In this document: positions 27,001 to 30,000 of the stretch, piece after piece
Numbering within the stretch: position 1 is the stretch's first letter
Layout: every line of letters starts with the position of its first letter
Virus record (IMG/VR): IMGVR_UViG_2718217859_000010
DNA length: 64,000 bases
Origin: a virus
Lineage: Duplodnaviria; Heunggongvirae; Uroviricota; Caudoviricetes
Strand: one strand, 5' to 3'
Made by a program: the position numbers

Positions 27001-30000
27001 GCACGGTGAGCCTGACCGCGACTGGTACAGCCGAACGCATCCATCTTCAGCAGATTGCGTCCGTAGCGCAGTATGGCTTCCGGGTCTTCCACCAGTTCAG
27101 TGGAGGTCTGCCAGCCGTTCTGCGGGTCGGTGTAATTCACCTCCACCGCCGTGTGCCGGTCCTTCAGGGCGCTGAAGCTGTAGCGGAAGCCCACACCATT
27201 ATCATCCACCACCACATCGCTGTTGGTGTAGGGCCACACCACATCCGACGGGCGGTCCTGCACGAACGTCAGCGTCTGCCCGTTCCATACCGGCATACAG
27301 CGCATCGCCGAGCAGAAATCACTGAGCACATCCCACGCCTTACGCTGTTGTGACAGGTACGCATTAAACGTCATCCGCGGTTCGGTCCCCCCGAAGCCAT
27401 CCGGCACCGGCTGGTCGCAGTACTGCGCAATGGCATACAGTGCCCATTTGTCCACGTCTGCGGCCCCCAGACGTTTCCCCATCCCGTAGCGCGGGTGGGT
27501 CAGCATGTCCCACAGGCACCAGGCCGGGTTGTTGCTCCAGGCCGGTTTCATACTCCCGTCCCAGATACCGCTGTAAGTACGTTTTTCCGGGTCATAGTTT
27601 GACGGCACCTGAATGATGCGACCGCGGATATGGTAGTTCACAGTTATCTGCTGACCGCCAAACTGCTCCGCATCCACCTGCAGGCCCACAATGGCCGTGT
27701 TCGGATAGCACTGTTTCACATCGATGATTTCGGTGTATGACGACCACAGCGTTCTGTTCTGCAGCTGGTCCGTGGTGCTGTCAGCCGTCTCCCTGACCAT
27801 CCGGATGTTAAAGGGGCGCTCAGGCAGATTATTCAGAATCACCGACGTCAGGTACTGCGAGGTGGTCTTACCGTTAATGGTGACATCCTTTTCCGTCACC
27901 CAGCTACCGTTACGCTGCAGCTGAATCAGCAGACGAACAGAAGCCGGATTACGGTCGCCCCTGGAGGTGGTCTCCACCAGTGACTGTACCCCGAAGGTGA
28001 CCCGCAGGCGGTCAATGTTCGCGGACGTAATGGTGCGCGTCACCGGCTTTGCCTTCGTCACTTCCACGCCCAGTGCAGTTTCAGCCCCGGAGGACTCAAA
28101 ACCTTCCGGCGGGGTCTGCTCCTGCTCCCCGGCGCGCCAGACGGCGGTCACACCGTGTATCACGGGATTGCCGTCCGTGTCCGTCAGCGGGGTTTTATTC
28201 ACCAGGATACTCTGCAGTCCCTTCACCGGGCCTTCTATCGGTCCCTCTCCAATCGCATCAATCACGCTCATCATCTGCGTGGACTTAAGATTGTCCTTTG
28301 CCTCAACTGGCGTGTGCGCCTTGCCGCCACCTTTTCCCATTGCCTCACCCTTTACTGTGATAACTGTTACGCACAAAAGAACAGGCACCCCGGGGGATGC
28401 CTGTATCATAATGACTGAATAAAAATTATGAGTTTATTCACATTTCCGGAAACTGACGGTTGCAGGAATAACTCCACATTTTTACAGTTCTTCAGACTGA
28501 TAAAGGCAATTGGTCAAAACTTAACTAATCAAGGTGACTATTCATTTCTCCCGTAATATTCGTGAGTATTACGGGAGATTTTTTTATCCTCTGCCGATAA
28601 CCACCACTTTCCCGTCACCACCTTCATCACGGGTACTGATGTCCTGGGATATCCGTCGGGAACCAACCAGCATTTCACCGTATGGCACCGGCACAGGATT
28701 ACCCTGAGCAATCATATTGTCCAGCGAGGAAAAGTAGGTGTTCTGTCTGCCGTTATCCGTTGTCCGGTAATCCGGTGTTTTTGCCTTCGGGGCCAGCATC
28801 TGAGCCACCCCACCCAGCGACATGGCAGCCCCCATGGAAAACATAATATTGCTGGCTGCAATACCGATACCCGGCATCCAGATGGAGGCAACAACCAGTG
28901 CCGCACCCAGCACCGTCTGAAAAACACCCCCACTTTTGGCTCCTTCAGTCCGGGGTACCAGATGAATGACATCCCCCGGGCTCAGTGGCTCATGCAGTCG
29001 GGTCGATATCTGGTCCGGCGCAGTATCCTCACCGGCAATACGTACCCGGTACCAGCCTTCGGTCATCTGACGGCGGAATCCCGGCAGCTGCAGAGACAGG
29101 GCACGAATAGCTTCCGCTGCCGTGTTCACATACAGGCTGAGGCGGCGGCCAAATCGTTGTAAATCCCCGTGAAGGCAGATGCGGACCAGTGGCGGTGATG
29201 CCAGACAGAATGCGTTCGTCGTTGCCATTTTTCAGAATACCTCTCCCGTTTACTCAGTTGTTCAGGTATATGGTGAAGCAGTTCACCGTTACCGCAGTAA
29301 ATGGCGGCGTGATTGGCCACCGATGCGCCAAAGCAGCACAGCAGGATATCGCCCGGCTGTGCAGAGGGCAGGGGCACCCGGTAAAATCCCGTGGCCTCCA
29401 TATTGTCCAGGTACAGGTTCTGGCCGTTGCGCCACCACTCATCCTCGCGCGCAAAATCCGGCAGCGTTATCCCTGCCAGATGGTATGCATCCCGGAACAG
29501 GGTGTAACAGTCCGTCACACCATGTTCAAAGCGCCGTCCGGTCAGGTGCGGAACACAGCGGAACTTGTGAATCGCCCCCCGGCAGACCAGCCACCAGGAC
29601 AGGGCACTCTTTATCTGCAGTCGCCGGTCGGCCTCGCTCAGCCAGGGCAGGCCATCGGGATGACTGTGGACCAGTGCCACAATCTCCCCCTGCATCTCTG
29701 CCCGCAGCCAGTCCTCCGGTGCAATACGAAAATATGCCTCAGGCTCTGCGGAGGTATTCACGCAGGGAAGATACCTGTCTCCCTCCGGCGTTCTCACCAC
29801 GAAGCCGCACGACTCCGCAGGCGCACACCGCCGGGCATGCGCCAGAATCGCTGATTCAGTCTGTGTCATAAAATGGGATTTACTGCGAAAGTTTATTAAT
29901 GGAAAGGAAACCGCCGAAATTAGCCACCATACCGCGCAGCTCACACCCGCGCATGCACTTGCTGCATTTGTCCTTACGGATATCTGTGGTGGGTTTATCG

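What the first reader, a model, noticed from the sequence alone, without database searches (positions are those of the whole stretch)
28341..28585. Opposite-strand 42-aa ORF with its own strong terminator inserted between tail genes I and J
In lambda, I and J are adjacent. Here a 243-bp gap holds a plus-strand 42-aa ORF (28428-28556) that ends inside a near-perfect terminator hairpin (28548-28585), antiparallel to the tail operon. This could be a small moron protein or an sRNA, and its terminator would also block antisense transcription into J.
Basis: seen in the sequence. Interest (0 to 1): 0.5.

Follow-up and report, generated by a model that had tools for sequence, protein, structure and literature searches.

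The report
Divergent PasB-like prophage small RNA gene
The 243-bp gap between phage tail genes I and J most likely holds an unannotated, strongly diverged relative of PasB, a known Hfq-binding prophage small RNA, and the 42-aa reading frame that drew attention is almost certainly a chance ORF.

Summary
In detail: there is a 243-bp I–J gap, a plus-strand 42-aa ORF, and a 14-bp hairpin with a T7 run whose last two T overlap the stop codon of I.

The ORF is not a gene. Its ATG is a single C-to-A change in a block that reads CTG in all 29 other unique alleles. It has no Shine-Dalgarno sequence and no homologue among 5.8 billion protein clusters, and relatives carry stops in that frame.

The gap is a homologue of the PasB locus of EPEC E2348/69. 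PasB is an 83-nt, Hfq-dependent sRNA with 37 RIL-seq partners. It lies in the same I–J gap, antisense to the tail operon, with its terminator abutting I.

- **Flanks:** the promoter-side half is about 80% identical to the PasB locus.
- **RNA body:** it is too diverged for BLAST to detect. A covariance model built without window-type sequences still ranks it first in the 64-kb window (26 bits, E about 0.003).
- **Subfamily:** it belongs to a distinct "W" type found in 21 IMG/VR contigs and about 80 complete E. coli genomes.
- **Difference:** this allele has lost the family's conserved ACUCCUU motif.

Related phages carry 2–4 such modules in tandem, or a sodC moron, at this junction. Expression of this allele is untested and its promoter looks weak. 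I rate it a new variant of a known kind, of moderate interest.

The parts
28341..28583 (.). I-J intergenic gap (243 bp), homologous as a whole to the PasB locus of lambdoid prophages
   Evidence: Searches give the coordinates. The alignment to the E2348/69 PP6 gap is, and to 32 unique gaps.
28495..28585 (+). Predicted sRNA of about 90 nt (W1 allele of the PasB family), antisense to the tail operon. The 5' end is inferred (+/-10 nt) and the 3' end is set by the terminator.
   Evidence: Model R1, built without window-type sequences, hits 28501-28583 (+) as the best match in the window (26.2 bits, E about 0.003). The fold shows a 5' single strand, a small hairpin, a U-rich linker and the terminator. 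The PasB 5' end maps to the aligned position.
28547..28585 (+). Rho-independent terminator: 14-bp stem 28547-28578 and U7 tail 28579-28585. The last 2 nt overlap the stop codon of I.
   Evidence: On the minus strand the hairpin is preceded by A7 and followed by AAUGAAUAG, so it is not a terminator for the tail operon (read from the sequence). In W2 relatives a stem pair changes from U-A to U.G, which is valid on the plus strand only.
28531..28546 (+). W-subfamily scaffold AAGGUGACUAUUCAUU: the U-rich single strand just upstream of the terminator. This is the presumed Hfq-binding module, and it occupies the position that Zhu et al. proposed for the PasB seed.
   Evidence: It is almost unchanged across 11 unique W-type modules: only position 28544 varies (A or G) and W2 has C instead of U at 28546. 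PasB-type alleles read UUAAUCUUCAU at this position.
28523..28530 (+). AACUAAUC, the window-specific replacement of the family-wide (A)ACUCCUU motif. It lies in the loop of the small 5' hairpin.
   Evidence: ACUCC is invariant or nearly so in 15 PasB-type alleles and is present in W2 and W3.
28460..28488 (+). Putative sigma-70 promoter: -35 TTGCAG (28460-28465), 17-bp spacer, -10 TACAGT (28483-28488). It matches 7 of 12 positions, so it is weak.
   Evidence: The -10 column is TAnnnT in all aligned alleles. The W3 relative has GTGGCA-18-TACAAT (9/12) at the same position. In E2348/69, TAGTGT ends 6 nt upstream of the annotated PasB 5' end. The consensus scan of the window did not report this site.
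28406..28445 (+). Highly conserved AT-rich block upstream of the promoter. It contains the perfect inverted repeat TGAATAAA (28416-28423) / TTTATTCA (28433-28440), and the ORF's ATG sits in its 9-nt spacer. Its presumed role is an UP element or operator of the sRNA promoter.
   Evidence: One search shows it is the best-conserved non-coding block. One search gives the inverted repeat. It is repeated in front of the modules of the tandem arrays, sometimes in diverged form, whereas the J-proximal hairpin occurs once.
28372..28404 (-). Hairpin on the tail-operon strand (10 bp, 28404-28381) followed by UCUUUUGUG (28380-28372), about 30 nt upstream of J's start codon. It is terminator-like in the sense direction and is an ancestral lambdoid feature.
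   Evidence: It is conserved in 12 distinct variants, with 97.5% of cells paired on this strand against 92.5% on the other, and covariation is not above the shuffles. Lambda has an analogous hairpin with a U-tract in its 60-bp gap.
28428..28556 (+). 42-aa ORF, judged non-coding
28584..29228 (-). Tail assembly gene I (flank). The ORF runs to 29228; RefSeq annotates 28584-29129.
24648..28340 (-). Tail tip / host specificity gene J (flank)

Best explanation
The gap is a complete small-RNA gene module inserted between tail genes I and J and transcribed antisense to the tail operon. Read on the plus strand, the module has four parts: a conserved AT-rich upstream block; a weak sigma-70 promoter (TTGCAG-17-TACAGT); an RNA body of about 90 nt; and a strong Rho-independent terminator whose U-tail overlaps the stop codon of I. 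It is a diverged homologue ('W1 allele') of the PasB locus. By analogy with PasB, I infer that the RNA is made from the resident prophage, is bound and stabilised by Hfq through its U-rich linker, terminator hairpin and U7 tail, and base-pairs in trans with host mRNAs. Both candidate seed regions differ from PasB, so I expect its target set to differ. The 42-aa ORF is a by-product of one C-to-A change inside the promoter-upstream block. Shown here: the anatomy, the homology of the locus, the subfamily, the non-conservation of the ORF, and the published properties of PasB. Inferred: transcription of this allele, its 5' end, Hfq binding, and trans-acting function.
For: (1) Same place, strand and layout as PasB. 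In E2348/69, PasB (1466343 to 1466261, minus strand, 83 nt) lies between I (ends 1466255) and J (starts 1466496), both on the plus strand. (2) The two gaps align over their J-proximal two-thirds at roughly 80% identity. (3) Model R1, built from 15 PasB-type alleles only, gives 28501-28583 (+) as the top hit of the 64-kb window on both strands with filters off, over its full length (26.2 bits, E about 0.003). (4) All 81 I-J gaps recovered (80 IMG/VR loci with an I homologue plus reference loci) fall into seven tail clusters, and every cluster representative ends with an antisense terminator next to I. (5) Intermediate relatives exist. W2 and W3 modules share AAGGTGACTATTCRTTYCTCCCGT, the terminator, and a promoter at the same position, and they sit in tandem arrays with PasB-type modules. 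(6) W1 versus W3 is 71% identical in the 5' part and 89% in the 3' scaffold, which is the pattern expected of a variable seed on a conserved Hfq/terminator scaffold. (7) The fold has the classic Hfq-sRNA architecture. (8) PasB is real and acts in trans. It is strongly reduced in the differential-expression table of the hfq study (log2 change -6.8, adjusted p 2e-40), the paper reports Hfq-dependent stability by Northern blot, it has 37 RIL-seq partners of which 30 are CDS or 5'UTR, its fraction as RNA2 is at least 0.99, and more than 98% of its partner fragments are core-genome. (9) Lambda lacks the module and has only the sense-strand hairpin.
Against: There are no expression data for this allele. 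Its promoter matches only 7 of 12 consensus positions and fell below the scan threshold. The strong TTCACA-16-TATAAT of E2348/69 (11/12) is degraded here to AATAAC with a poor -35. The R1 score is marginal (26 bits against 57-95 for PasB-type modules) and the model's E-values are rough. BLAST with PasB finds nothing here. The family-wide ACUCCUU motif is lost, which could mean decay rather than retargeting. The allele is rare: 15 of 5,426 complete E. coli genomes, 3 IMG/VR contigs, and none of the GTDB species representatives. The terminator stems of PasB-type alleles are invariant, so they give no covariation support.
Confidence: 0.65

Rival explanations
1. It is a decayed relic of a PasB-family module. 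The promoter and seed have eroded, the RNA is made at negligible levels, and what remains useful, if anything, is the strong hairpin as a one-way insulator that stops stray antisense transcription from entering I-K-L.
For: The promoter is weak (7/12, not reported by the scan). The P1-type -10 is AATAAC, lacking the final T. The conserved ACUCCUU is lost. The allele is rare. J is annotated as a pseudogene and the portal gene as frameshifted in the identical GB089 prophage, which suggests a decaying prophage.
Against: The terminator is the strongest in the family (14 bp plus U7) and the W scaffold is almost unchanged in W1. The -10 keeps the critical TAnnnT positions. The divergence is concentrated in the 5' part rather than spread evenly. 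PasB itself is abundant, yet its annotated 5' end lies 6 nt downstream of a poor -10 (TAGTGT) and 21 nt downstream of the strong TATAAT, so consensus scores are a weak guide here.
Confidence: 0.2
2. It acts mainly in cis as an antisense RNA to the late tail-operon transcript. The RNA is perfectly complementary to the I-J intercistronic region, including the stop codon of I. It could trigger RNase III cleavage or uncouple I and J expression. Convergent transcription could also damp leaky tail-gene expression in lysogens.
For: The position and orientation are fixed in all 81 junctions examined despite large sequence divergence of the RNA body. Complementarity to the sense transcript follows by construction. 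A separate sense-strand, terminator-like hairpin just upstream of J is conserved and occurs in lambda too. That is compatible with regulated read-through at this junction.
Against: More than 98% of PasB's RIL-seq partner fragments are core-genome and it behaves as a trans-acting sRNA. The RNA ends about 150 nt from the J ribosome-binding site, so it cannot occlude it. The same site also accepts a sodC moron, so the fixed position may simply mark a permissive moron site. This reading does not exclude the main explanation.
Confidence: 0.1
3. It is a 42-aa small protein moron translated from the plus strand (28428-28556).
For: An ATG-initiated ORF exists and ends inside a terminator. It is kept intact in the 15 near-identical genomes, although that is uninformative at 99-100% identity.
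Against: The codon reads CTG in all 29 other unique alleles, including L003, which has the same RNA body. Relatives have stops after 6-32 codons or different frames. There is no SD within 15 nt upstream (GACTGAATAAAAATT). There is no homologue in 5.8 billion clusters and no Pfam match. PGAP calls nothing here. The ATG sits in the spacer of an inverted repeat within the conserved promoter-upstream block, and it lies 32 nt upstream of the putative -35. ORFs of this size are abundant by chance.
Confidence: 0.03

Closest known systems
PasB sRNA of EPEC E2348/69 prophage PP6 (Pearl Mizrahi et al. 2021, PMC8550237; Zhu, Shabalina and Storz 2026, bioRxiv 10.64898/2026.05.13.724894)
   Same: It lies in the I-J intergenic gap of a lambdoid prophage, is antisense to the tail operon, and has its terminator U-tail abutting the stop codon of I. 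The upstream block and the J-proximal hairpin are homologous. The size is similar (83 nt against about 90 nt) and the architecture is the same: a U-rich linker followed by a terminator. An IS009 Rfam hit lies nearby, as Zhu et al. report for PasB flanks.
   Different: The RNA body is only about 63% identical in a forced global alignment, and the longest shared word is 9 nt, inside the U-tail. BLAST at word sizes 28, 11 and 7 finds nothing. The terminator stem differs (UCUCCCGUAAUA... against CCCGCAG...). ACUCCUU is replaced by ACUAAUC. The stretch that Zhu et al. propose as the seed reads GUGACUAUUCAU instead of UUAAUCUUCAU. The strong TTCACA-16-TATAAT promoter is not kept.
W2 and W3 modules in tandem I-J arrays of STEC prophages (unnamed; found here in IMG/VR and in 67 complete E. 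coli genomes)
   Same: They share the scaffold AAGGUGACUAUUCRUUYCUCCCGU, the terminator arms and the promoter position, and are 82-89% identical in the 3' part.
   Different: They keep ACUCCUU, carry a bulged nucleotide in the stem, and are internal or J-proximal members of 2-4-module arrays. The window has a single module next to I.
AgvB / AsxR / EcOnc03 anti-sRNAs of EHEC prophages (Tree et al. 2014, PMC4104026; Rfam RF02702 and RF02703)
   Same: They are prophage-encoded, Hfq-associated short RNAs in which a conserved 3' scaffold and terminator carry a variable 5' region.
   Different: They lie at the PR' moron site downstream of Q, not in the tail operon. There is no Rfam match in the gap and no sequence similarity.
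Phage-borne sodC-F morons of E. coli O157:H7 (PMC2569942)
   Same: They are inserted at the same I-J junction on the same antisense strand. In 12 IMG/VR loci the sodC gene is followed by a PasB-type module.
   Different: They are protein-coding cargo (PF00080). The window has no such gene.

Membership tests
PasB sRNA family | Encoded in the I-J intergenic region of a lambdoid prophage, antisense to the tail operon | tested here: met
PasB sRNA family | 3' stem-loop plus poly-U (Rho-independent terminator) directly abutting the stop codon of I | tested here: met
   All seven tail clusters of the 81 junctions end with the same arrangement.
PasB sRNA family | Detectable by blastn with the E2348/69 PasB sequence, the operational criterion of Zhu et al. 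(word size 28, query coverage above 75%) | tested here: not met
   No hit on 28490-28586 at word size 28, 11 or 7, or with blastn-short.
PasB sRNA family | Match to a sequence-and-structure profile of PasB-type alleles | tested here: inconclusive
   It is the top hit of the whole window and matches the full model length, but scores only 26.2 bits (E about 0.003, rough calibration) against 57-95 bits for PasB-type modules.
PasB sRNA family | Homologous promoter-side flank (AT-rich block, TAnnnT -10 column, J-proximal hairpin) | tested here: met
PasB sRNA family | Conserved body motifs: ACUCC(U)U, and UUAAUCUUC upstream of the terminator (the proposed seed) | tested here: not met
   The window reads ACUAAUC and GUGACUAUUC.
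PasB sRNA family | Expressed, Hfq-dependent, with trans partners | not testable with these tools
   Known only for E2348/69 PasB.
W-type subfamily (defined here) | Motif AAGGTGACTATTCRTTYCTCCCGT plus the TATTRCGGGAG arm and a T-run | tested here: met
Small-protein moron | Conserved start codon, ribosome-binding site, conserved frame, and homologues | tested here: not met
AgvB/AsxR anti-sRNAs | Location at the PR' moron site and a match to RF02702 or RF02703 | tested here: not met

The most novel reading that the evidence does not exclude
The I-J junction of lambdoid phages may be a recombining, hypervariable sRNA cassette site. A conserved promoter block and Hfq/terminator scaffold would carry interchangeable 5' bodies, stacked in some STEC prophages into arrays of up to four different sRNAs or coupled to sodC. 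On this reading the window's W1 allele is a functional, seed-switched member with a host target set different from PasB's. This diversity would be invisible to the BLAST-based survey that described PasB as the least diverse Pas sRNA.
Probability: 0.3. Interest if true: 0.55.

Novelty: new variant of a known kind. Interest (0 to 1): 0.35.

Why it matters
PasB is one of the most highly connected accessory-genome sRNAs in the EPEC Hfq interactome, and the published survey describes it as the least diverse Pas sRNA in sequence and synteny. The data here suggest otherwise. The same tail-operon junction carries several strongly diverged alleles that BLAST cannot link, including the window's type, found mainly in non-O157 STEC and food or bovine isolates. 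It also carries tandem arrays of up to four modules. If these RNAs are expressed, different prophages supply different sRNA regulators from one fixed, unannotated site. That matters for understanding strain-specific regulation in pathogenic E. coli and for genome annotation, because neither Rfam nor PGAP marks the locus. For this window specifically, the practical result is negative for the headline claim: there is no small protein gene here.

Tried and rejected
(1) I recalled AgvB/AsxR as lying between tail genes. Tree et al. place them at the PR' moron site, so I rejected that lead.

(2) Rfam gave nothing in the gap at gathering thresholds, and only chance-level hits at E up to 10 (mir-2041, ctRNA_p42d, RyfD). 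PasB itself has no Rfam family, so the empty result is uninformative.

(3) The PasB Northern probe sequence does not occur in the window within 3 mismatches.

(4) The 42-aa peptide has no homologue and no Pfam match.

(5) A scan of GTDB species representatives for the W motif found no match.

(6) I tested covariation of the J-proximal hairpin. It is not above the shuffle controls (175 of 500 shuffles reach the observed score). There is only a modest excess of G.U pairs on the tail-operon strand, so strand assignment rests mainly on the U-tract.

(7) The terminator stems of PasB-type alleles are invariant, so there are no compensatory changes to count.

(8) Promoter assignment stays ambiguous. 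The TATAAT-type hexamer (P1) is strong in E2348/69, but its -10 ends 21 nt upstream of the annotated PasB 5' end, it is absent in W2, and it is degraded in the window. The TAnnnT column (P2) is universal but has a weak -35. I chose P2 for the window and report the uncertainty.

(9) I considered a minus-strand sRNA ending at the 28404-28381 hairpin. I found no credible promoter for it, and lambda's analogous hairpin argues that it belongs to the tail operon.

(10) I did not attempt genome-wide target prediction, because no whole genome was available to the script environment.
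Full report
**1. Observation**

The window carries a lambdoid prophage inserted next to yodB. Its tail operon is on the minus strand.
- J starts at 28340 and I ends at 28584, leaving a 243-bp gap at 28341-28583.
- The plus-strand ORF at 28428-28556 (42 aa) exists.
- The hairpin at 28547-28578 has 14 pairs and a 4-nt loop, followed by T7 at 28579-28585. The last two T are the complement of I's stop codon.
- The hairpin has the longest stem among the terminator-like sites of the surrounding 10 kb. RNA 28496-28585 folds with z = -3.9.

ORFs of this size are abundant by chance: 78 ORFs of at least 30 aa occur in 9 kb.

Lambda's I and J are 60 bp apart, not adjacent. That gap holds only a comparable sense-strand hairpin with a U-tract.

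**2. What the locus is**

Rfam has nothing in the gap. My first recollection, AgvB, was wrong, because that RNA lies at the PR' moron site.

The literature search led to the Pas sRNAs. PasB of EPEC E2348/69 is annotated at NC_011601 1466343 to 1466261 (minus strand, 83 nt, prophage PP6). The RefSeq record shows that this is the gap between the tail assembly gene I (ends 1466255) and J (starts 1466496), both on the plus strand. PasB therefore occupies the same junction, on the strand antisense to the tail operon, with its 3' end against the stop codon of I. This is the architecture of the finding.

The two gaps align well over the J-proximal two-thirds. The aligned elements are the J ribosome-binding site, the hairpin, an AT-rich block and the promoter region. 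The RNA body and terminator barely align.

**3. Survey of junctions**

I fetched 80 IMG/VR loci encoding I homologues and extracted 81 I-J gaps.
- **Length classes:** the gaps fall into classes of about 240, 343, 424, 715, 851, 910-930 and 1150 bp.
- **Shared ending:** their I-proximal ends fall into seven clusters, and each cluster representative ends next to I with an antisense terminator plus a T-run. Six clusters use the stem CCCGCAG...CTGCGGGA. The window type uses UCUCCCGUAAUA...UAUUACGGGAGA.

The alignment of 32 unique short gaps shows the module order on the window's plus strand:

| Element | Window coordinates | Note |
|---|---|---|
| J ribosome-binding site | about 28343-28349 | read on the minus strand |
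| Conserved hairpin | 28381-28404 | |
| Highly conserved AT-rich block | 28406-28445 | |
| Column of TAnnnT hexamers | 28483-28488 (TACAGT) | in E2348/69, TAGTGT ends 6 nt upstream of the annotated PasB 5' end |
| Variable RNA body | about 28495-28546 | |
| Terminator | 28547-28585 | |

Stx1a, Stx2a and Stx2c phages of O157 carry a single, unannotated PasB-type module at this site.

**4. Membership tests**

A covariance model (R1) was built from 15 PasB-type alleles, none of them window-type. Its best hit in the whole 64-kb window, on both strands with filters off, is 28501-28583 (+). The match covers the full model length and scores 26.2 bits, E about 0.003. PasB-type modules score 57-95 bits, so the window's RNA is a distant relative.

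BLAST with PasB at word size 28, 11 or 7 does not find it, and the longest shared word is 9 nt, inside the U-tail. The published survey searched bacterial genomes at word size 28 with more than 75% query coverage, so it could not have seen this allele. PasB itself is not in Rfam.

**5. The W subfamily**

The motif AAGGTGACTATTCRTTYCTCCCGT occurs in 21 IMG/VR contigs and in none of the GTDB species representatives. There are three sub-alleles.

| Sub-allele | Arrangement | Occurrence |
|---|---|---|
| W1 | single module next to I (the window's type) | 15 of 5,426 complete E. coli genomes; 3 IMG/VR contigs |
| W2 | in two-module arrays | IMG/VR loci |
| W3 | in four-module arrays | 67 complete genomes, mostly non-O157 STEC, never annotated |

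- W1 versus W3 is 71% identical in the 5' part and 89% in the 3' scaffold.
- In W2, one stem pair changes from U-A to U.G, which pairs only on the plus strand.
- All PasB-type alleles, W2 and W3 carry ACUCCUU. W1 reads ACUAAUC (28524-28530).
- The stretch just upstream of the terminator, where Zhu et al. propose the PasB seed, also differs between PasB type (UUAAUCUUCAU) and W type (GUGACUAUUCAU).

So the window's RNA differs from PasB at both candidate seeds. Whether this is retargeting or decay cannot be decided from sequence.

**6. The ORF**

- The ATG at 28428 lies in the 9-nt spacer of a perfect inverted repeat, TGAATAAA-N9-TTTATTCA, within the conserved upstream block.
- The codon reads CTG in all 29 other unique alleles. 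That includes L003, which has the W1 body.
- Translating the aligned frame gives stops after 6-32 codons in many alleles.
- No Shine-Dalgarno sequence precedes the ATG.
- The peptide has no homologue in 5.8 billion clusters and no Pfam match.
- PGAP calls nothing here.
- The ATG lies 32 nt upstream of the putative -35, so the terminated transcript would not contain it.

I conclude that the ORF is a chance frame.

**7. How it most likely works**

PasB is experimentally supported in several ways:
- Its sizes were confirmed by Northern blot, and the paper reports Hfq-dependent stability.
- It is strongly reduced in the differential-expression table of the hfq study (log2 change -6.8).
- It is higher under the non-activating condition.
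- It has 37 unique RIL-seq partners, 30 of them CDS or 5'UTR.
- It is almost always the second RNA in chimeras, and more than 98% of its partner fragments are core-genome.

The window's RNA has the same build: a single-stranded 5' end, a small hairpin presenting the divergent motif in its loop, a U-rich linker, and a 14-bp terminator with U7. I therefore infer an Hfq-dependent, trans-acting sRNA made from the prophage.

The terminator works one way only. On the tail-operon strand it is preceded by A7 and lacks a U-tract, so late transcription of J is not blocked. It stops plus-strand transcription from entering I, not J.

The promoter is the weak point. TTGCAG-17-TACAGT matches 7 of 12 positions and was not reported by the scan. 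W3 has GTGGCA-18-TACAAT (9/12) at the same position, and E2348/69 has an additional strong TTCACA-16-TATAAT (11/12) slightly upstream.

**8. The sense-strand hairpin**

The hairpin at 28404-28381 is conserved in 12 distinct variants. Of the pair cells, 97.5% are paired on the tail-operon strand and 92.5% on the other strand. Eight G.U cells are valid only on the tail-operon strand, and one cell favours the other. Covariation does not exceed the shuffles. The hairpin occurs once per junction, next to J, even in arrays, and lambda has an analogue. I read it as an ancestral feature of the tail operon, either a terminator or attenuator read through by Q-modified polymerase or an mRNA stability element. 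It is not part of the sRNA module.

**9. Wider picture**

The long gaps are tandem arrays of the promoter-plus-sRNA module: two in L014, three in L026, and four in L008, L009, L010 and L012. The spacers between modules contain a remnant resembling the 3' end of I. This suggests that the arrays arose by recombination between junctions of different phages, which is an inference.

In the 851-bp class the junction carries a Cu/Zn superoxide dismutase moron (PF00080, 111.9 bits) on the antisense strand, followed by a PasB-type module. These match the known phage sodC-F genes of O157 (PMC2569942).

The junction is thus a general antisense moron site whose default cargo is a PasB-family sRNA.

**10. 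Verdict**

- **Observation:** confirmed.
partly supported. The sRNA option holds and the protein option does not.
- **Classification:** a divergent, BLAST-invisible variant at the known PasB locus, which I rate a new variant of a known kind.
- **Interest:** moderate, 0.35. The kind of element is known and function is unproven for this allele. The allelic diversity and the arrays at this site do not appear in the papers I could read.

Noticed in passing
L008, L009, L010 and L012 (for example, L012 minus-strand modules at 2145-2227, 2365-2448, 2589-2670 and 2818-2898); L026 (three modules); L014 (two modules): The I-J gap in some phages holds tandem arrays of 2-4 different PasB-family sRNA modules, each with its own upstream block and terminator. 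The spacers contain a remnant resembling the 3' end of gene I.
   Followed up: partly
L027 and 11 other IMG/VR loci (851-nt I-J gap): A Cu/Zn superoxide dismutase moron (PF00080, 111.9 bits) lies antisense to the tail operon at the same junction. A PasB-type module follows it on the same strand, so the sRNA there could derive from the sodC 3'UTR.
   Followed up: partly
L011 (1150-nt I-J gap): A 172-aa ORF on the tail-operon strand has no Pfam match. A 40-aa duplicate of the J N-terminus is also inserted at the junction.
   Followed up: no
window 28416-28423 / 28433-28440: A perfect 8-bp inverted repeat, TGAATAAA-N9-TTTATTCA, lies in the conserved block upstream of the sRNA promoter. It is perfect in W1 and W3 modules and imperfect in PasB-type alleles. 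It may be an operator. The left half resembles an ARG-box half-site, but that is from memory and untested.
   Followed up: partly
window 28372-28404 (minus strand); L104 846-905 (lambda): A conserved terminator-like hairpin with a U-tract lies on the tail-operon strand immediately upstream of the J ribosome-binding site. It is present in lambda too. Its function in the late operon is unclear.
   Followed up: partly
window 49736-49953 (-), 57561-57648 (-), 57673-57749 (-), 20795-20992 (-): Rfam gathering-level hits to STnc100 (163.8 bits), C4 antisense RNA (83.6), isrK (67.0) and IS009 (120.6) lie in the same prophage. IS009 near the tail end matches what Zhu et al. report for PasB flanks.
   Followed up: no
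window 24648-28340 (minus strand); GB089 annotation in L107: In the RefSeq record that is identical at this locus, J is annotated as a pseudogene 'missing C-terminus' (25128-28340), yet the window ORF runs on to 24648. The portal gene is annotated as frameshifted. The prophage may be defective or may have a mosaic J C-terminus.
   Followed up: no
L002 3366-3393 (minus strand): The strongest promoter-like site on the PasB strand of E2348/69 (TTCACA-16-TATAAT, 11/12) has a -10 that ends 21 nt upstream of the annotated PasB 5' end. PasB may therefore be 5'-processed, or it may start from the weaker TAGTGT -10.
   Followed up: partly
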